Sequence record: PQ850618.1
Direction: 5' to 3' (one strand)
Source of the DNA: Escherichia phage ManiWeber_Bas99
DNA length: 64,000 bases
The notes beneath the pieces are model-generated. The model saw nothing but the letters and a program-made list of their open reading frames with translations, was not told the origin of the DNA and did no database searches. Position numbers and translations under genes: made by a program. Shown here in pieces: positions 36,028-43,115 of the stretch; positions within the stretch are counted from its first letter, which is position 1; each line of letters begins with the position of its first letter.

Positions 36028-36900
36028 CTATTTATTGAAATTAATATTGTGGGTGTTGACGAGACGTTCACACATGGCGCTGTAAACACCATCGTCGTGT
36101 ATAGAGTCTTCGTGCTTCAGGCCGCTGATTGCAAAGCGTGTAAGCTTGACAATCTTAAGCTCGAACAGATGCCACATGTGGTAGTCTTCCGGCGTTTTCA
36201 ACGTTACGCCATTAGGGAAAAGCACCTGCATAACCTGGCCAACCATCACGGCATTATCGCCATAGACAGCGTTGCGCTCACGGAAGGTTGCTGCCATTGC
36301 ATCAAGAATATCGGCGGCAGTTGCCGGAGATTGTTCAACTTCCACAGCCTTAGTCTCTTCTTGCCCTGTTGCGCTTGGATCAATTGCTAATTGTTGCACC
36401 ACTTCACCTGCCTTGCAAAGATTAAATGTAAAAGCGATTTTATTTTGAGCAACGGAATTATAATACAATGCTTCATCTTGCATCCGCGCGAGCACGTCTT
36501 GTCGGTCGTCGAATACATTGATGATTCGATAATCGCCGTGCCGCAATGCGTGCGATAGCCATGCAGATTTCATAATAGTTGATGGACGTTTGTCGCCATA
36601 GTCTCTCATCTTGATTGTAAATTCATCAAAAGGAAAAACATTGTCCAGACGTTCAAAAGTCACTTGTCTGTATTTTTCTGGCCTTGCAGTCCAATATTCA
36701 ACCGCCTCACCGCGAAGAGATGCCGACTCTACTGCTGATGCAATGTGAGGATAGAACTGATCATAACCAATACCGCTGTGATAGTCATCATAGTCTGACA
36801 ACGGACCTGCCACCTTGATGCGGTCTAAGCGCCAACGGTCATCAAACAGCGTTCCGTCAAGGTCGAATACGTTTAATATTTGGTTATTTTTAATACTCAT
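36028..36900 (-). CDS. HAD-superfamily phosphatase-like protein with C-terminal all-alpha domain
   Basis: 290 aa; HAD motif I FDLDGTL near the N-terminus, later VFDDRQDV; C-terminal half helical, possibly MazG-like. Confidence 0.45.
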   Translation of the reverse strand: MSIKNNQILNVFDLDGTLFDDRWRLDRIKVAGPLSDYDDYHSGIGYDQFYPHIASAVESASLRGEAVEYWTARPEKYRQVTFERLDNVFPFDEFTIKMRDYGDKRPSTIMKSAWLSHALRHGDYRIINVFDDRQDVLARMQDEALYYNSVAQNKIAFTFNLCKAGEVVQQLAIDPSATGQEETKAVEVEQSPATAADILDAMAATFRERNAVYGDNAVMVGQVMQVLFPNGVTLKTPEDYHMWHLFELKIVKLTRFAISGLKHEDSIHDDGVYSAMCERLVNTHNINFNK

Positions 36901-37706
36901 CCCTTTGACACTCCATCTTTAGCAACTGGATTGTTTGTGATTGGCGCGGCATCCCAAAACTGGATGCGCAACTCTTCTTGCTGTGCCGTGGTATCCATCC
37001 AATCACGATACCACGGGCAATGGGCTTTGCCATGACGAGGAAACGCGCATTTACCCATACCGATGCATTGCGGCTGTAGTAAAGGATTAGCCCATGGGTG
37101 CACCTTGAGGACTTCCGCAACCATTGCGCGAAATACTTCTTGATACTCACCTTGTGTGCGCGTGCACAAGCGGTTTGACGCCATCTGCTGCAGCGTGCGC
37201 AAGTTGAACTTTGCCATGATATGCGTTTGCATATTAGAAGGCAACACGGCACGTGCATCCTGAATCTCTGCGCCAGCCGCGCGAAGTTCTTGATACAAAG
37301 CATCGATAGTCGCCATTGCATCATCCCATTTCTCTGCCAATGAGTGATGTCTTATGTGCACATCATCAAATGCATTTTCATCATTGCAGTCAGAAGGGTG
37401 CTCGAATGCCTTCGGACGAATCGCATCAAATGCAGAAGATTCCTGAGCGCGGCTGGTGCGTTCTTGGTATGCACCTGTGCGTGTGCGTACCATCTGATGA
37501 GTCATATTCTTTGATACAGCGGTGATGTCAAAGATATAGTCCACAAAGTCAAAAGGCGACTTGATGGTGTCAAGCATGTAGCGCCAATGCTCTTGCTTCT
37601 CTGATTCCGTCATCTCAGAGACAGGCTTACCAGTCATGCGCGTGTTCTTTGTTTCCAGCAAAAGGTCAAGTGCATCTTGGGTGTATCGAATTAATTCAAC
37701 TTTCAT
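36897..37706 (-). CDS. ThyX-like (flavin-dependent thymidylate synthase homolog), divergent
   Basis: 269 aa; ...SPFDFVDYIFDITAVSKNMTHQMVRTRTGAYQERTSRAQ... aligns with the ThyX RHR...S.RY block but reads RTR; ...AVLPSNMQTHIMAKFNLRTLQQM... matches the second ThyX block. Confidence 0.55.
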   Translation of the reverse strand: MKVELIRYTQDALDLLLETKNTRMTGKPVSEMTESEKQEHWRYMLDTIKSPFDFVDYIFDITAVSKNMTHQMVRTRTGAYQERTSRAQESSAFDAIRPKAFEHPSDCNDENAFDDVHIRHHSLAEKWDDAMATIDALYQELRAAGAEIQDARAVLPSNMQTHIMAKFNLRTLQQMASNRLCTRTQGEYQEVFRAMVAEVLKVHPWANPLLQPQCIGMGKCAFPRHGKAHCPWYRDWMDTTAQQEELRIQFWDAAPITNNPVAKDGVSKG

Positions 37707-37719
37707 TTTAATTATCCTA

Positions 37720-38166
37720 TTAACGGTAATTTACTAGTTGCTGATCACCAGAGAAGGTGCAATGATAAACGAATTGTGCGTTATAAAGCAACTGAAAACT
37801 TTTCTTTGGTTCATTATTAGAACTCATTGATGTAAAGATTTCTGCACCAGAACGATTTTCACCAATCAGGTTGATAAAGCCGCCAGTTGAACGAGGCTGA
37901 ACGAAAGTGAAACGTTGCATCCACGGAGTGCGGTTGGCACCTTTCCCTGTGAATCCTTGAATCTGAATATTCAGGCCTTCTTGCTCGTTCACACCGATGT
38001 AAGTGGTAATTGTTGCGCCAGTCGTTGCTGCGGTCTTGCCGTCCATCGCTTCGCAATCGTAAACAGCGATTGAATCTGAAGTACGGACAGCGGCTTCAGT
38101 CGCTTCCATATACATGGTTCCGAGAATAGCAGTTGCGGCAAGCGCGATTCCAGTGATTCGTTTCAT
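37720..38166 (-). CDS. Secreted protein
   Basis: 148 aa; signal peptide MKRITGIALAATAILGTMYMEATEAA. Confidence 0.4.
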   Translation of the reverse strand: MKRITGIALAATAILGTMYMEATEAAVRTSDSIAVYDCEAMDGKTAATTGATITTYIGVNEQEGLNIQIQGFTGKGANRTPWMQRFTFVQPRSTGGFINLIGENRSGAEIFTSMSSNNEPKKSFQLLYNAQFVYHCTFSGDQQLVNYR

Positions 38167-38231: not shown

Positions 38232-39227
38232 TTATTTATTAGCAATATAAGCAAATTTTTGATAGTTATTTGCTTTGATGAGTTTTTCAACTTCAACAAG
38301 GTCATGAGCAACGTCATCAAGCAAAATGTTTCGCCAAGTAGCGAATCGACCGACACTAAATACGTTCAAATCCATGGTCAGCTGTAGGAGTAGAGCGTGT
38401 CGCAAGTCTTTCGGAATGTCGACAATCTTGCCATACTTCTGGTCGACCTTTTCAACTTCTTCGAGAGCGATGTCACTCCATGAGAGGCCAAAGGCCGTCA
38501 ACACTTCGTCGACTTCTGCGCGCAGCTTGATGTCACGGTAACGAGTAATGCCGCCAGCGGCTTCAACTGCGGCTTCACTTACGCTAACCAAAGGAATTGT
38601 TTCAATGATCAGCGTGTCACCAGTGATTGATGCGCGGTAAGTTCTGACGGAGTAGTCAGGAAAGTAAATGGTTTGATACAGTTCACACTTGCGTTTAATC
38701 TTAAAGCGGTAAACACGAATGTTTGCCTTGTCGAATGAGAAATCAATCTTTTGATCAATCCCAGCAAGCTTCATTATGACTGGCAGCGGCGATGTGTTGA
38801 TGATTGGCGTCTCGCTATAGCCGCAAAGAGTATCAACAGGAGTATTAAAGAATATGCGGTCACCCAGTTTGTCGACAAGCTGATCATAAAAGTCATCAGG
38901 CGCAATATAACGCGTTGCAGTTTTAAGCTTCATGATTGAACGGCTGCCAAACTGATTGGTGACCTTCATGGAATACATATTGGCAAGGTTGATTGGGCAA
39001 TGGTCGTGGTAGTAGTTGCCGCGAAAATACACAGCCTTGTCAACTGTCACGGCTTTAAAAGGGATTCCGGTAATACGGCTTACTTCTTCGCTGCGAAAGC
39101 GTAGCAATGCCTTGTGCTGTGGCGCTCGCTCCCCTGCTTCGTACACAATAGAGTTCGGGAAGTGACACGCGGTAATAAGTCCTGCCAAACCGCCGCCGAT
39201 AATCATTACAGGTTGTTTCATGTTCAT
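38232..39227 (-). CDS. FAD/NAD(P)-binding oxidoreductase (possibly Glf-like)
   Basis: 331 aa; N-terminal Rossmann motif VMIIGGGLAGL; C-terminal ...GRFATWRNILLDDV... resembles UDP-galactopyranose mutase-type flavoenzymes. Confidence 0.5.
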   Translation of the reverse strand: MNMKQPVMIIGGGLAGLITACHFPNSIVYEAGERAPQHKALLRFRSEEVSRITGIPFKAVTVDKAVYFRGNYYHDHCPINLANMYSMKVTNQFGSRSIMKLKTATRYIAPDDFYDQLVDKLGDRIFFNTPVDTLCGYSETPIINTSPLPVIMKLAGIDQKIDFSFDKANIRVYRFKIKRKCELYQTIYFPDYSVRTYRASITGDTLIIETIPLVSVSEAAVEAAGGITRYRDIKLRAEVDEVLTAFGLSWSDIALEEVEKVDQKYGKIVDIPKDLRHALLLQLTMDLNVFSVGRFATWRNILLDDVAHDLVEVEKLIKANNYQKFAYIANK

Positions 39228-39311
39228 TTGTCCTTTGTGGGTGATATGAGAAGTATAATAGCTAAATTATTTTACAGCAACAAGTCATTTCTATTTAGTA
39301 CAGACGAAAAA

Positions 39312-39338
39312 AAGACCCACAACAAGTGTGGGTCAATT
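39312..39338 (-). terminator. Rho-independent terminator (minus strand)
   Basis: Minus-strand reading GACCCACACTTGTTGTGGGTCTTTTTTTC: 8-bp stem plus T7. Confidence 0.6.
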
Positions 39339-39362: not shown

Positions 39363-40208
39363 TTATTCCGCTTGATCACCGTCTTCAGCATCGTCGTTGG
39401 ATTCAACATCGACAAACTCGATGTGACCCATCTCTTCCAGCTTGCTCAGGTAGGAGCGAACGGAAGCGCCAAACAGTTGATCTTTAACTTTTTCGCCCAG
39501 CTCATCGATAGACTGTGCCACACCAACTTCGCCTTCTTTGATCGCCGCCAGAACGCGTCCACGGGTGGAATGCTCTTGCGGCTGGCTCAGGCCGTTGCCA
39601 GTGTAGATGAAGTGAGTGGCTTTTGCACGACGCTGACCGTTTGCCTTTTTAGCAGCCTTACGTTCTGCGATGGCTTTGCGACGTTCTTCAGCTTCTTTCT
39701 TACGCTGTTCTTTCTGCTGTTCTGCAGCTTCTTTAGCCGCAATCTTAGCAGCTTCACGCTCTGCCTTGCGTTTCGCTTTAGCTTCTTCTTTGGCCTTTTC
39801 TTTTTCGGCCTTCGCTGCAGCACGGGCTTGATCACGCTCTGCTTTCTTGGCCGCAGCCTGCTCAGCTTTCAGGCGCTTGGCTTCTTCTTTAGCCTTTGCC
39901 TTTTCGATTTCTTTTGCTGCTTTAGCGGCTTCACGCTCTGCTTTCTTAGCAGCAGCCTTTTCTGCACGCTCTTTAGCTTTCTTAGCTGCTTCTTCAGCAC
40001 GCTTCTGAGCCTTCTCATCAGCAGCCTGCTTGCGTTTCAACGCAGCTTCTTCACGCTTGGCTTGTTTTTCCTGCTCACGCTTCTGGCGTTTTTCTTCGGC
40101 TTCTTTCTTTTTAGCCAGGCGTTTTTCTTCAGCCACGCGACGACGTTCTGCTGCGGCTGCTTGTTTTTCTTCTTTAGATAATACTTTGATTGCTTCGGCC
40201 ATATTCAC
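39363..40208 (-). CDS. K/E/A-rich charged helical protein with small C-terminal globular domain
   Basis: 281 aa; about 190 aa of (A/E/K/R)-only repeats consistent with a single long alpha helix or TolA/histone-H1-like tail. Confidence 0.5.
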   Translation of the reverse strand: MNMAEAIKVLSKEEKQAAAAERRRVAEEKRLAKKKEAEEKRQKREQEKQAKREEAALKRKQAADEKAQKRAEEAAKKAKERAEKAAAKKAEREAAKAAKEIEKAKAKEEAKRLKAEQAAAKKAERDQARAAAKAEKEKAKEEAKAKRKAEREAAKIAAKEAAEQQKEQRKKEAEERRKAIAERKAAKKANGQRRAKATHFIYTGNGLSQPQEHSTRGRVLAAIKEGEVGVAQSIDELGEKVKDQLFGASVRSYLSKLEEMGHIEFVDVESNDDAEDGDQAE

Positions 40209-40269
40209 AGTCCTTAAATAAATTAGTTTATTTTATATTCCCCGTTTGGGATAACTTAATTATGCCTTC

Positions 40270-40308
40270 AGTTGCCGCCAGTAGCAACTAAAAACTATGG
40301 CGGCAATG
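40270..40308. promoter_or_regulatory. Inverted repeat TTGCCGCCA-(17)-TGGCGGCAA (operator or terminator candidate)
   Basis: Perfect 9-bp inverted repeat between the helicase gene and the K/E-rich gene. Confidence 0.3.
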
Positions 40309-40361
40309 CCACTTTAATTAAACTGATTTTCAGTTTTATTTTTCGTAAATTTACGTCAACA

Positions 40362-41546
40362 TTAACGCGCTTTCAAATCACGGTACACGGTCAGATTCTT
40401 CTTAGCACGGGTGATAGCGGTGTACATCATCTTGGAGTACGGAACGCCGCGCAAGATTTCTTCCAGCACGCACACATTGTCCCACTCGCTGCCTTGCGAT
40501 TTGTGCACCGTGATGACATAGCCGTAGTCCATCCCGCCAACAGCACGTTGCGCTTCTTTGCGCACTTCCTGATCAGTAGAGAAGGAAAGAGGATTAATCT
40601 TTACCTTTATATCTTTACCATCAGTCAATGAACGCAAGTTGACATACATTATTTCATTCGACTCATCTTCATCCCTTTCAAAGTCCGGCACTGGCTCATA
40701 GCTAATAACAATCCCTTGCTCGCCATTACAGAATCCTGGCCCGTGCTGGTTGAAGGTGCAAATAACTTTCTCGCCGATTCCTGGCATTGGCGTTATACGT
40801 CCGCTCACTTGCCGTAATAATGAATTCCATTTATCTTTGGTGCTATTATAGGAGCAAATAATTTGATCATCTTCGCCCATGAATTTCTTCAATGCAGTAA
40901 CGCGCGGCGATTCTGCCAATACTTTGACGTCATCGTATTCACGCGGAGGAAGGCGGTTGCCTTGGCGCACGAAGAAGGAGGCGCGGATTATATTGGACTC
41001 TTTCCCTTGCCGCATGATTTCTGTTAACAGTACGTCAACGGCATCTTCAGTAAAGTAGGCGGCGGCTTTTACCGGAGGGACTTGTCCAATGTCGCCTAAT
41101 GCCAGGACAGGGATGCGGTGATCAAGAAGGCGCTCTGTGTCCCACTCGCCAACCATCGACGCTTCATCGAGTACAACAAGGTGCGGCCTTTCATCCAGCT
41201 TTGACTTTCTCGAAAAGATTGGCTCATTGTCGTCATTTACGCCGCGCACGTTATAGATGAACTGGTGAAGGGTCTTAGCGCCACGACAGCCTTTTTGCTT
41301 TAATCGGCTTGCAGCCTTTCCGGTCGGCGCAATATAGATAGCTCCATACTCACCGACACAACGGCGCACAATCTCGCGAGCAATAGAGGTTTTACCAGTT
41401 CCTGCATAGCCAGCGATGAAAAACACGCGCTTCGTCGTTTTACCGTCCTGCAATCGCTTGTACCATGCAACGGCTTTCTCGATGGCGTCGATTTGTTGCG
41501 CGTTAAACTGAATCACTGGCTCATCATTAAATTCTGGAATGTTCAT
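40362..41546 (-). CDS. Dda/RecD-like SF1 DNA helicase
   Basis: 394 aa; Walker A GYAGTGKTS, Walker B VVLDEASMV, C-terminal VITVHKSQGSEWD motif. Confidence 0.75.
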   Translation of the reverse strand: MNIPEFNDEPVIQFNAQQIDAIEKAVAWYKRLQDGKTTKRVFFIAGYAGTGKTSIAREIVRRCVGEYGAIYIAPTGKAASRLKQKGCRGAKTLHQFIYNVRGVNDDNEPIFSRKSKLDERPHLVVLDEASMVGEWDTERLLDHRIPVLALGDIGQVPPVKAAAYFTEDAVDVLLTEIMRQGKESNIIRASFFVRQGNRLPPREYDDVKVLAESPRVTALKKFMGEDDQIICSYNSTKDKWNSLLRQVSGRITPMPGIGEKVICTFNQHGPGFCNGEQGIVISYEPVPDFERDEDESNEIMYVNLRSLTDGKDIKVKINPLSFSTDQEVRKEAQRAVGGMDYGYVITVHKSQGSEWDNVCVLEEILRGVPYSKMMYTAITRAKKNLTVYRDLKAR

Positions 41547-42032: not shown

Positions 42033-43115
42033 ATGGCTAGTTTAAGAGAAGAAGCAAAAATAATCGAAGAGTTTTTAACAGAACTCCAAAGAGGCATTCC
42101 AGAAGATGAGCGCGTCATGACGGTGTTTGCGCCTGAAGCAACGGTGCAGACTGACGAGCGCGGCAAGAAGATTAACAGCAGCTTCTGGCCTAAGCCTTGG
42201 AAGTTGGGCAAGCCGCTCATGCAGCACCAAAACGGCTATGCCTGCATCAGTTCAATGCGTAAGTCTCCCAACCCGAAGACGGGTGAGATGCGATACTGGC
42301 GTACAGAGTCAGCCTTTGGTCACGGTATGGCGATGATGGTCGACGACATCGGTCACGGTAAAGGGTCCAAAGGCGATTTAGATTTGGAATTCTTTTTCGA
42401 GCGACTGAAGCCGACTGTCATTGTCGAGACGTCACCGAACAACCACCAGCTGTGGTACTTCTTTAAAGAACCAATTGACCATCTTATTCAGTTCAAAGCA
42501 TTCCTTGGGTCTTTCGTAAACATGGTACTCAAGAAGGGCGGCGACAACACGATTAAAGACGTAACGCGCGTGGGCCGTGTTCCTGGGTGCATCAACAACA
42601 AGCGCGTGACTCACGACGGCCCCTATAAATATGTCGATGAGAACGGCGACCCGTTCCGCTGCCGACTTGTCCATGCAGATTACTCCTTGCGCTACACCAT
42701 CGAAGACATTTGTCAGGCATTCGGCTTTCACGTTGTAATGCCGCAAAAGCGTGAGATTCAAATTGACGTCGATGAATACAAATACGATGCTGTTTGGTAT
42801 AAGATAGCCCAGCAGATTCTAGCGCGCAACAAGATGGGTGAAGGGTCTGATGGCGACGTTATCGAGAATATGTCAGGTAAGTGTCGCATAATCTGTCCTT
42901 GGGGTGAAGAGCACACCAACGGCGACCCGTATGGCGCTTACTTTCGCGGCCCTATCCCTGGTGCAGAACATGAATTTGTGTTCGGTTGCGCCCACGACTG
43001 TCACCGGAAAGGGGAAGGCAAGAAAGGTTGGACCGCTTTTGTTGAAGCAATCGTCATGCCTTATATTGAGAATCAACTTGACATGATAAATCGTCGTGCA
43101 GGTGGCATAAAATAG
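42033..43115 (+). CDS. Primase, archaeo-eukaryotic (AEP/PrimPol-like) type
   Basis: 360 aa; acidic MMVDDIGHG motif, ETSPNNHQLWYFF motif, C-terminal Cys/His cluster CPWGEEH...CAHDCH. Confidence 0.5.
   Translation: MASLREEAKIIEEFLTELQRGIPEDERVMTVFAPEATVQTDERGKKINSSFWPKPWKLGKPLMQHQNGYACISSMRKSPNPKTGEMRYWRTESAFGHGMAMMVDDIGHGKGSKGDLDLEFFFERLKPTVIVETSPNNHQLWYFFKEPIDHLIQFKAFLGSFVNMVLKKGGDNTIKDVTRVGRVPGCINNKRVTHDGPYKYVDENGDPFRCRLVHADYSLRYTIEDICQAFGFHVVMPQKREIQIDVDEYKYDAVWYKIAQQILARNKMGEGSDGDVIENMSGKCRIICPWGEEHTNGDPYGAYFRGPIPGAEHEFVFGCAHDCHRKGEGKKGWTAFVEAIVMPYIENQLDMINRRAGGIK

What the first reader, a model, noticed from the sequence alone, without database searches (positions are those of the whole stretch)
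39363..40208. Protein built of about 190 residues of A/E/K/R repeats
The protein is almost entirely alternating acidic and basic residues with alanine, the composition of a stable single alpha helix or a TolA/histone-H1-like domain. It is followed by a small C-terminal globular domain and sits between replication genes. It could be a DNA-compacting or spacer/ruler protein. The antisense strand gives an artefactual 269-aa ORF of F/L/S repeats.
Basis: seen in the sequence. Interest (0 to 1): 0.45.

Follow-up and report, generated by a model that had tools for sequence, protein, structure and literature searches.

The report
Charge-striped helical rod protein of phage
This is a real, expressed and highly conserved gene of a Wifcevirus-type E. 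coli phage whose protein is predicted to be a 26-nm single helix with one positively charged face, followed by a small winged-helix domain and an acidic tail; it most likely binds the phage DNA, but nobody has tested its function.

Summary
Residues 11-195 are 88% A/E/K/R with net charge +27, followed by a ~70-aa globular domain and an acidic tail. The antisense ORF is an artefact.

The window is a Wifcevirus, 98% identical to phages SP13, F13 and WFC. The gene is a core gene of the PB1-like phage lineage, always in the order Dda-like helicase, this gene, flavoprotein, ThyX. No copy was found in 185,579 cellular genomes.

The "TolA protein" label in databases reflects composition only.

New findings:
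- AlphaFold2 predicts one unbroken helix, residues 10-185.
- K/R sit on one face and E/D on the opposite face, with an 11/3 (3.67-residue) period held in register over 16 repeats. Of 27 homologues scored, 26 peak at 3.64-3.70.
- Within the genus the helix is as constrained as the helicase (omega 0-0.03) and has no indels.
- The C-terminal domain has a winged-helix-like fold.
- Published proteomics found the protein prominently in CsCl-purified virions of a 98%-identical phage.

The closest mechanistic precedent is the DNA-binding KER helix, winged helix and acidic region of CAF-1. My best reading is a non-specific DNA-riding architectural protein, possibly co-packaged with the genome. Confidence is about 0.45 and the function is untested.

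The parts
40259..40287 (-). Sigma-70-like promoter candidate (TTGCTA, 17-nt spacer, CATAAT), about 56 nt upstream of the ATG
   Evidence: Consensus scan, 9 of 12 matches. Similar TTGCnn-17-nATAAT boxes lie 49-57 nt upstream in the FoX7 and Hera orthologues, with weaker matches in the LMA2 (TTCCCT, 50 nt) and Gekk3-15 (-10 box TAATAT, 75 nt) orthologues. Function not shown.
40211..40215 (-). Shine-Dalgarno AAGGA, 8 nt before the ATG at 40202
   Evidence: Read from the sequence. It lies only 2 nt from the GTG at 40208, which argues for the ATG start.
39363..40202 (-). Coding sequence, 279 aa plus stop (PHROG 4765; orthologue of vB_Eco4M-7_83, Mansfield gp073, Bas98_0054, Pbunavirus LMA2 ORF66, 14-1 gp67 and Pa193 gp84)
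   Evidence: Between relatives, third-codon-position changes dominate.
39648..40175 (-). Residues 10-185: predicted single continuous alpha helix (about 26 nm), 11/3 charge-striped. K/R occupy hendecad positions 0, 3, 7 and 10; E/D lie on the opposite face.
   Evidence: AlphaFold2. Periodicity and phase. Omega 0-0.026.
39615..39647 (-). Residues 186-196: basic linker with the family-invariant G-x-R-R-x-K-A-T-H motif (R191, R192 and A195 invariant)
   Evidence: Alignments A1 and A2.
39411..39614 (-). Residues 197-264: winged-helix-like domain (beta-alpha-beta-alpha-alpha-beta) with the invariant helix R-S-x-L-S-K-L-E-E-x-G-H
39366..39410 (-). Residues 265-279: disordered acidic tail (net -7 over residues 266-279)
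   Evidence: An acidic tail of 5-41 residues is present in 22 of the 25 homologues whose C-terminus could be compared.
39304..39334 (-). Intrinsic terminator (8-bp G+C-rich stem followed by T7)
   Evidence: Scan. Annotated as a terminator in Mansfield, WFH and LMA2. A hairpin plus T-run follows the orthologue in 6 of 7 lineages.
39372..40181 (+). Antisense 269-aa F/L/S-rich ORF: an artefact of the purine-rich sense strand
   Evidence: 15-35 non-synonymous against 2-5 synonymous differences, and a new stop codon in Mansfield.

Best explanation
The gene encodes an abundant, non-sequence-specific nucleic-acid (DNA) architectural protein of the phage.

Shown:
- It is a real gene with its own promoter-like and terminator elements.
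- It is under strong purifying selection.
- It is conserved in a fixed place in the replication module of all PB1-like phages.
- It is expressed, and it is found in CsCl-purified virions of a 98%-identical phage.

Predicted from sequence and structure:
- residues 10-185 form one rigid helix about 26 nm long
- K/R residues form a continuous stripe on one face (about 42 of the 64 basic residues) and E/D lie on the opposite face
- an invariant Arg-Arg arm follows, then a winged-helix domain and a disordered acidic tail

Inferred mechanism:
- The winged helix and RR arm dock on DNA.
- The cationic stripe lies along roughly 75-80 bp of duplex and neutralises it. The acidic face points outward, keeps the protein soluble and stabilises the helix through i/i+3-4 salt bridges.
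- The acidic tail competes with DNA for the basic surfaces and tunes binding. This is how the KER single helix, the winged-helix domain and the acidic ED region of chromatin assembly factor CAF-1 work together.
- Because the protein rides on phage DNA, some of it is packaged with the genome and may enter the next host with it.
For: Real and constrained gene:
- In 6 relatives there are no indels, and the 195 helix codons show 10-23 synonymous against 0-1 non-synonymous changes.
- Omega is 0-0.026 for the helix, against 0.014-0.033 for the neighbouring helicase.

Architecture:
- AlphaFold2 predicts a single helix over residues 10-185.
- The K/R period is 3.68. None of 5000 shuffles reaches the observed power, and the phase stays within 282-325 degrees along the whole helix.
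- K/R lie at 306 degrees and E/D at 130 degrees on the helical wheel.
- The same peak, at 3.64-3.70, appears in 26 of the 27 homologues scored, although their sequences and lengths differ.
- The C-terminal domain has a winged-helix-like fold.
- Invariant basic or polar residues are R191, R192, R214, R249, S250, S253 and K254.

Precedent: in CAF-1 a single alpha helix with 'a stripe of basic residues' binds DNA. It cooperates with a winged-helix domain that an acidic region autoinhibits (PMC10335832).

Context: the order helicase, this gene, flavoprotein, ThyX holds in nearly all of 37 viral loci and in six named genera.

Virions:
- vB_Eco4M-7_83 gave 7 peptides and a score of 1197.6, rank 7 of 33 and above the portal, in CsCl-purified phage. 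It was also found in ECML-117.
- The Pbunavirus orthologue is annotated 'putative structural protein'.
- It is absent from the 31 proteins of LiCl/DNase 'ghost' particles of Pbunavirus SCUT-S1, which fits loss together with the DNA.
Against: - No DNA-binding experiment exists for any family member.
- The globular domain itself is not basic (net -3).
- A fifth of the helix is acidic.
- There is no modulation of about 23 residues that would match the DNA helical repeat.
- The virion preparations also contained obvious enzymes (glyoxalase-fold protein, helicase, reductase), so carry-over of an abundant sticky protein is possible.
- The main text of the Pbunavirus Pa193 cryo-EM paper does not mention its orthologue gp84; its mass-spectrometry tables were not available.
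- The gene sits in the replication module behind a sigma-70-like promoter, not among the late structural genes.
Confidence: 0.45

Rival explanations
1. Replisome or recombination adaptor. The winged-helix domain binds a partner protein (for example the adjacent Dda-like helicase, the RepB-type primase, or host SSB or clamp). The rigid helix acts as a spacer or ruler that holds partners about 26 nm apart. Detection in virions is carry-over of an abundant protein.
For: - Invariant adjacency to the Dda-like helicase inside the replication module.
- No SSB or loader is annotated in positions 1-50,000 of the Bas98 genome, which cover the replication module.
- Non-structural enzymes are present in the same virion preparations.
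- The zero-indel constraint on helix length within the genus fits a ruler.
Against: - A pure spacer does not need a continuous one-sided basic stripe conserved in 26 of the 27 homologues scored.
- Helix length varies from about 107 to about 195 residues between lineages.
- The gene is a separate transcription unit with its own terminator.
- Its virion score exceeds that of the portal, which is high for a contaminant.
Confidence: 0.25
2. A true structural or internal virion protein whose job is not DNA binding. Examples would be an internal core, scaffold or ejection protein, or a length-determining strut in head assembly.
For: - 'Putative structural protein' annotation in Pbunavirus records.
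- Strong signal in CsCl-purified virions.
- Scaffold and ejection proteins are often long charged helices (general knowledge).
Against: - The gene is encoded far from the head and tail modules, among replication genes.
- It is absent from SCUT-S1 ghost particles, which retain the structural proteins.
- It is not mentioned in the main text of the Pa193 cryo-EM paper, where gp24 was assigned as the scaffold.
- A winged helix with an RR arm is not typical of scaffolds.
Confidence: 0.12
3. A TolA homologue or mimic, or a cell-envelope ('cell wall associated') protein, as several GenBank records state.
For: - Database labels 'TolA protein' and 'putative cell wall associated protein'.
- TolA domain II has a similar A/K/E composition.
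Against: - No signal peptide or membrane anchor. The N-terminus is MAEAIKVLSKEEK.
- No Pfam or NCBIfam TolA hit.
- Composition-corrected BLASTP against E. coli TolA gives E = 0.17.
- TolA domain II lacks the 3.67 periodicity (power 1.3x expectation).
Confidence: 0.02

Closest known systems
CAF-1 large subunit (yeast Cac1): KER single-alpha-helix DNA-binding domain, winged-helix domain and acidic ED region (PDB 8DEI; PMC10335832)
   Same: A K/E/R-rich single helix carrying a stripe of basic residues on one face that binds DNA non-specifically. It works with a winged-helix domain, and an acidic segment autoinhibits DNA binding. The phage protein has all three module types.
   Different: - No sequence homology.
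- The phage helix is about twice as long (176 against about 90 residues) and has 30% Ala.
- The module order differs: helix, winged helix, acidic tail, all within 279 aa and a single polypeptide.
- There is no histone-chaperone context.
- DNA binding is untested for the phage protein.
- I could not retrieve the KER sequence to test for the same 11/3 period.
Classical ER/K single alpha helices (myosin VI, VIIa and X, caldesmon, drebrin)
   Same: Long, hydrophobic-poor, highly charged helix predicted to be stable alone. Opposite charges are enriched at i/i+3-5.
   Different: - Classical SAHs distribute charge around the helix and do not bind DNA (myosin 7a control in PMC10335832).
- Here like charges recur at i+7, i+8 and i+11, giving two opposite faces, net +27 and 30% Ala.
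TolA domain II (E. coli)
   Same: Ala/Lys/Glu-rich, long predicted helix. This is the source of the 'TolA protein' label.
   Different: No membrane anchor and no domain III. No significant similarity and a different periodicity. The phage protein is cytoplasmic or virion-associated.
Linker histone H1 and bacterial H1-like proteins (Hc1, AlgP); HMGB-type proteins with acidic tails
   Same: A winged-helix or other small DNA-binding domain plus a long basic, Ala/Lys-rich extension. The acidic tail acts as a modulator, as in HMGB1 (general knowledge).
   Different: - The basic extension here is N-terminal, helical and 21% acidic.
- No Pfam linker-histone hit.
- Foldseek matches the H1 globular domain only at E = 2.4.
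11-mer (11/3) amphipathic helices: apolipoproteins, alpha-synuclein, group-3 LEA proteins
   Same: A hendecad register that keeps one face straight over very long helices. The A/K/E-rich composition resembles LEA 11-mers (general knowledge).
   Different: Those helices have a hydrophobic face for lipid or interface binding. Here there is no hydrophobic face: 7 hydrophobic residues in 176, and Ala spread evenly round the wheel.

Membership tests
PHROG 4765 (unknown function) / PB1-like 'ORF66' family | Full-length profile match | tested here: met
   E = 2.4e-84 over residues 1-279. The C-terminal domain is found in 356 phage records.
PHROG 4765 (unknown function) / PB1-like 'ORF66' family | Conserved position: Dda-like helicase, then this gene, then the UGM-like flavoprotein, then ThyX | tested here: met
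TolA | N-terminal transmembrane anchor (domain I) | tested here: not met
   The N-terminus MAEAIKVLSKEEKQ has no hydrophobic segment. Residues 1-200 contain only 14 hydrophobic residues (M/L/I/V/F/Y) and no hydrophobic run longer than the C-terminal F198-I199-Y200.
TolA | C-terminal domain III (Pfam TolA_C) and significant sequence similarity | tested here: not met
   No Pfam or NCBIfam hit. BLASTP against E. coli TolA gives E = 0.17.
Single alpha helix (ER/K SAH) | Long helix, high charge density, opposite charges at i/i+3-4, no hydrophobic heptad seam | tested here: met
   - AlphaFold2 helix over residues 10-185.
- K to E at +4, z = 3.2; E to K at +3, z = 1.7.
- 7 hydrophobic residues in 176, and no 3.5-residue period for Ala.
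Single alpha helix (ER/K SAH) | Monomeric and helical in solution | not testable with these tools
   Needs CD, SEC-MALS and AUC on recombinant protein.
SAH DNA-binding domain (CAF-1 KER type) | [quoted passage not shown] | tested here: met
   Hendecad positions 0, 3, 7 and 10 are 56-75% K/R and 0-12% acidic. The phase is constant over 16 repeats. The feature is conserved in 26 of the 27 homologues scored.
SAH DNA-binding domain (CAF-1 KER type) | Binds DNA | not testable with these tools
   Needs EMSA or fluorescence anisotropy.
Winged-helix (wHTH) fold | alpha-beta-alpha-alpha-beta core with a wing | tested here: inconclusive
   - The model has beta-alpha-beta-alpha-alpha-beta with pLDDT about 90.
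- Foldseek PDB best hit is E = 0.58.
- No Pfam winged-helix family is hit.
- Weak Csa3 wHTH hit, E = 0.014.
Linker histone H1/H5 | Linker_histone domain match | tested here: not met
   No Pfam hit. Foldseek matches Hho1p GII at E = 2.4, probability 0.11.
NA37 / YejK nucleoid-associated protein | Profile match above threshold | tested here: not met
   Four homologues score 11-16 bits against a cut-off of 24.6. hhalign against E. coli YejK gives probability 8%.

The most novel reading that the evidence does not exclude
The protein is a genome-riding 'phage chromatin' component. It coats stretches of the phage DNA through its 26-nm cationic stripe, is packaged with the genome and is injected with it. 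There it shields the incoming DNA. [quoted passage not shown] It would be a bacteriophage counterpart of the CAF-1 KER/WHD DNA-binding mode that arose independently.
Probability: 0.1. Interest if true: 0.8.

Novelty: new variant of a known kind. Interest (0 to 1): 0.5.

Why it matters
The family is a core gene of the PB1-like myophages. These include Pbunavirus, among the Pseudomonas phages most used in therapy, and Wifcevirus. It is still labelled 'hypothetical', 'TolA' or 'structural protein'.

If the charge-striped helix binds DNA, it would be only the second described SAH-type DNA-binding domain. The CAF-1 authors state that the basic stripe was so far seen only in KER. It would also be by far the longest, and the first in a virus.

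It would give a candidate for three things:
- a protein packaged with the genome
- the unexplained restriction resistance of Wifcevirus
- a simple, rigid, roughly 80-bp DNA 'ruler' module for protein engineering

If instead it is a replisome spacer, it still corrects a widespread mis-annotation.

Tried and rejected
- **TolA homology:** rejected.
- **YejK/NA37 relationship:** weak Pfam hits were not confirmed by hhalign.
- **Histone H1 globular-domain similarity:** not significant.
- **DNA-level tandem repeats:** essentially none. A repeat finder failed on strand syntax.
- **DNA-turn periodicity in K/R density (about 23 residues):** none.
- **Canonical coiled coil:** no heptad hydrophobic pattern.
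- **Membrane-binding 11/3 amphipathic helix:** no hydrophobic face.
- **Cellular or prophage homologues:** none in the GTDB species genomes.
- **PDB sequence search:** with the C-terminal profile and with the helix, nothing.
- **CAF-1 KER sequence (8DEI):** an attempt to pull it out through an MBP-fusion query failed.
- **The search for homologous proteins:** the C-terminal domain returned only one fragment, a limit of the word index. The full-length query gave 8 usable homologues.
- **afdb50 fold search:** not available.
- **Papers not held:** Ceyssens et al. 2009, the source of the 'structural protein' label, and the supplementary mass-spectrometry tables of the Pa193 and 14-1 studies.
- **Literature search:** 'TolA-like' phage virion proteins returned nothing. 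The TolA mentions in two phage papers were uninformative.
- **Defence-system profiles:** nothing except a weak Csa3 winged-helix hit.
- **First dN/dS run on the helicase:** used a wrong frame and was redone.

Full report
**What the window is.** A 4-kb stretch around the finding is 98% identical to Escherichia phages vB_EcoM_SP13, F13 and WFC (genus Wifcevirus). The finding lies in the minus-strand replication and nucleotide-metabolism module.
- Upstream are a Dda-like helicase (40362..41546) and, beyond it on the other strand, a RepB-type primase (42033..43115).
- Downstream are a flavoprotein that other annotators liken to UDP-galactopyranose mutase (38232..39227), then ThyX, a PNKP-like phosphatase, an SDR, a glyoxalase-fold protein, Pol III epsilon and alpha, and a UvsW-like helicase.

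**The observation.**
- The ORF is real and lies on the minus strand. I place the start at the ATG at 40202 (279 aa). An AAGGA lies 8 nt upstream of it, and every annotated relative has the same 840-nt CDS.
- Residues 11-195 are 87.6% A/E/K/R with net charge +27. Residues 196-265 are ordinary. Residues 266-279 are acidic.
- No other ORF in the window comes close: 92 A/E/K/R in the best 100 residues, against 52 for the next ORF and a median of 29.
- At the DNA level there are no meaningful tandem repeats.

**Which strand is coding, and how constrained it is.**
- Six Wifcevirus relatives at 95-98% DNA identity all have exactly 840 nt.
- In the 195 low-complexity codons I count 10-23 synonymous but only 0-1 non-synonymous differences. 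Almost all changes are at third positions of the minus-strand frame.
- By Nei-Gojobori, omega is 0-0.026 for the helix and 0.05-0.11 for the C-terminal part. For comparison it is 0.014-0.033 for the helicase and 0.02-0.07 for the flavoprotein.
- The 'simple' region is therefore as constrained as an enzyme.
- The antisense 269-aa ORF takes 15-35 non-synonymous against 2-5 synonymous hits and a stop codon in one relative, so it is an artefact.

**Family and distribution.**
- Pfam and NCBIfam give nothing. PHROG 4765 ('unknown function') matches at E = 2.4e-84.
- tblastn with the last 85 residues finds 356 phage records. They include Pbunavirus (293 Pseudomonas records), Wifcevirus, Kylevirus, Myosmarvirus, Carpasinavirus, and Burkholderia and Aeromonas phages.
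- An exhaustive HMMER pass over 1.84 billion representatives finds only 27 clusters at E < 0.001.
- A scan of one genome from each of 185,579 bacterial and archaeal species finds none. IMG/VR gives 37 loci, and the complete contigs are 61-73 kb.
- In nearly all loci the order is primase (on the opposite strand), helicase, this gene, flavoprotein, ThyX.
- An intrinsic terminator follows the gene in 6 of 7 lineages. A TTGCnn-17-nATAAT box lies about 50-57 nt upstream in several lineages. This suggests a dedicated, host-RNAP-driven monocistronic unit, which is an inference.

**Anatomy of the protein.**
- With an alignment of nine family members, AlphaFold2 predicts one unbroken helix from residue 10 to 185 (pLDDT up to 97; 176 x 1.5 A is about 26 nm). 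A compact domain and a disordered tail follow.
- The helix has only 7 hydrophobic residues and no heptad signal, so a canonical coiled coil is unlikely.
- The charges are not arranged as in textbook ER/K helices. Like charges recur at i+7, i+8 and i+11, and opposite charges at i+3 to i+5.
- The K/R power spectrum peaks at 3.68 residues (11/3), and none of 5000 shuffles reaches the observed power.
- Written in rows of 11, positions 0, 3, 7 and 10 are 56-75% K/R with 0-12% acidic residues. Positions 2, 5, 8 and 9 are Glu-rich.
- On the helical wheel K/R point to 306 degrees and E/D to 130 degrees. Ala is spread evenly.
- The phase stays within 282-325 degrees over all 16 hendecads. The rod therefore carries one continuous cationic stripe and an anionic stripe on the far side.
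- The same 3.64-3.70 peak appears in 26 of the 27 homologues scored. This holds although their helices differ in sequence and in length (about 107-195 residues) and some carry His-rich N-termini.
- E. coli TolA domain II shows no such period.

**The C-terminal module.**
- The alignment shows an invariant G-x-R-R-x-K-A-T-H arm, an S-x-R-G helix cap and an invariant helix R-S-x-L-S-K-L-E-E-x-G-H.
- The AlphaFold2 model (pLDDT about 90) is beta-alpha-beta-alpha-alpha-beta.
- Foldseek finds nothing significant in the PDB and only family members among viral models.
- A weak hit to the Csa3 wHTH (E = 0.014) points the same way.
- I call the fold winged-helix-like, with no assignable family.
- An acidic tail of 5-41 residues follows in 22 of the 25 homologues whose C-terminus could be compared.

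**Expression and location.**
- In a published proteome of CsCl-purified vB_Eco4M-7 (98% identical here), the orthologue ('TolA protein', 31.1 kDa) gave 7 peptides, 25.8% coverage and a score of 1197.6. That is 7th of 33 proteins, above the portal, major capsid and sheath. It was also seen in ECML-117 (PMC7048862).
- Trypsin would shred the K/R-rich helix, so about 26% coverage is probably close to the most that can be observed (inference).
- Pbunavirus records call the orthologue 'putative structural protein'. I believe this stems from Ceyssens et al. 2009, which I could not read.
- By contrast, it is not among the 31 proteins of LiCl/DNase 'ghosts' of Pbunavirus SCUT-S1 (PMC6521218).
- It is not mentioned in the main text of the Pa193 cryo-EM paper.
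- This pattern fits a protein that leaves with the DNA. It equally fits a sticky, abundant contaminant, since glyoxalase-fold, helicase and reductase proteins were in the same preparations.

**Mechanism.**
- The closest working precedent is the large subunit of CAF-1. [quoted passage not shown]
- That helix binds DNA non-specifically with length selectivity. It cooperates with a winged-helix domain, and an acidic ED region autoinhibits that domain. A myosin SAH without the stripe does not bind DNA (PMC10335832).
- The phage protein combines the same three kinds of module in 279 residues, with a stripe twice as long.
- I therefore propose the following. The winged helix and RR arm dock on DNA. 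The cationic stripe lies along about 75-80 bp. The acidic face keeps the rod soluble and helical. The acidic tail tunes affinity.
- Bound to replicating phage DNA, part of the pool would be packaged with it. All of these steps are inferred.

**Rivals.**
- A replisome adaptor or ruler whose winged helix binds a protein partner (0.25).
- A non-DNA structural or ejection protein (0.12).
- A TolA-like envelope protein (0.02; effectively refuted).

**Novelty and significance.**
- The gene family is known only as an unannotated or mis-annotated ORF. I found no functional study.
- The module combination has a eukaryotic analogue but no homologue, so I rate it a new variant of a known kind.
- The most novel reading not excluded is that the protein travels with the genome and shields it. 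[quoted passage not shown] I give that reading about 10%.

Noticed in passing
window 38232..39227 (-), with 36897..37706 (ThyX) and the genes downstream: The 331-aa protein next to the finding has an N-terminal GxGxxG motif (MIIGGGLAG) but no Pfam, NCBIfam or PDB sequence hit. Mansfield's annotators call it UDP-galactopyranose mutase by HHpred. It is always adjacent to the finding and sits near ThyX, a PNKP-like phosphatase, an SDR, a glyoxalase-fold protein and MazG. This could be a nucleotide or DNA modification pathway. It may be relevant to the unexplained restriction resistance of Wifcevirus.
   Followed up: partly
homologues P0005, P0006, P0007, P0009, P0013, P0021, P0023, P0024 (N-termini): Many metagenomic family members start with a His-rich segment (for example MSHGHHxHxxxDxGHxHG) ahead of the charged helix. 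This suggests a metal-binding head. Wifcevirus and Pbunavirus lack it.
   Followed up: no
relatives of the window: vB_Eco4M-7 genes 70, 71 and 77 (Bas98_0039, 0040 and 0046 by size and position): Three further proteins encoded in the minus-strand replication and lysis-side module scored 518-718 in CsCl-purified virions. They are two unknowns (31 and 21 kDa) and the glyoxalase-fold protein. Either a set of non-structural-module proteins is packaged, or these preparations carry abundant contaminants.
   Followed up: no
window 37720..38166 (-): A 148-aa ORF between the flavoprotein and ThyX begins with a signal-peptide-like sequence (MKRITGIALAATAILGTMYMEATEAA). It has no family hit in Pfam, PHROGs or NCBIfam. 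This is odd for a replication module.
   Followed up: no
window 40297..40312 (-): A short G+C hairpin followed by a T-run lies just after the helicase stop codon, upstream of the finding's promoter-like site. It may be a weak terminator that insulates the gene from helicase read-through.
   Followed up: no
literature on the genus (BASEL study): Two Wifcevirus isolates were reported to go from adsorption to progeny release in only 3-5 minutes. The four BASEL Wifcevirus isolates form plaques on E. coli K-12 only poorly unless its cryptic prophages are removed. Neither property is explained.
   Followed up: no
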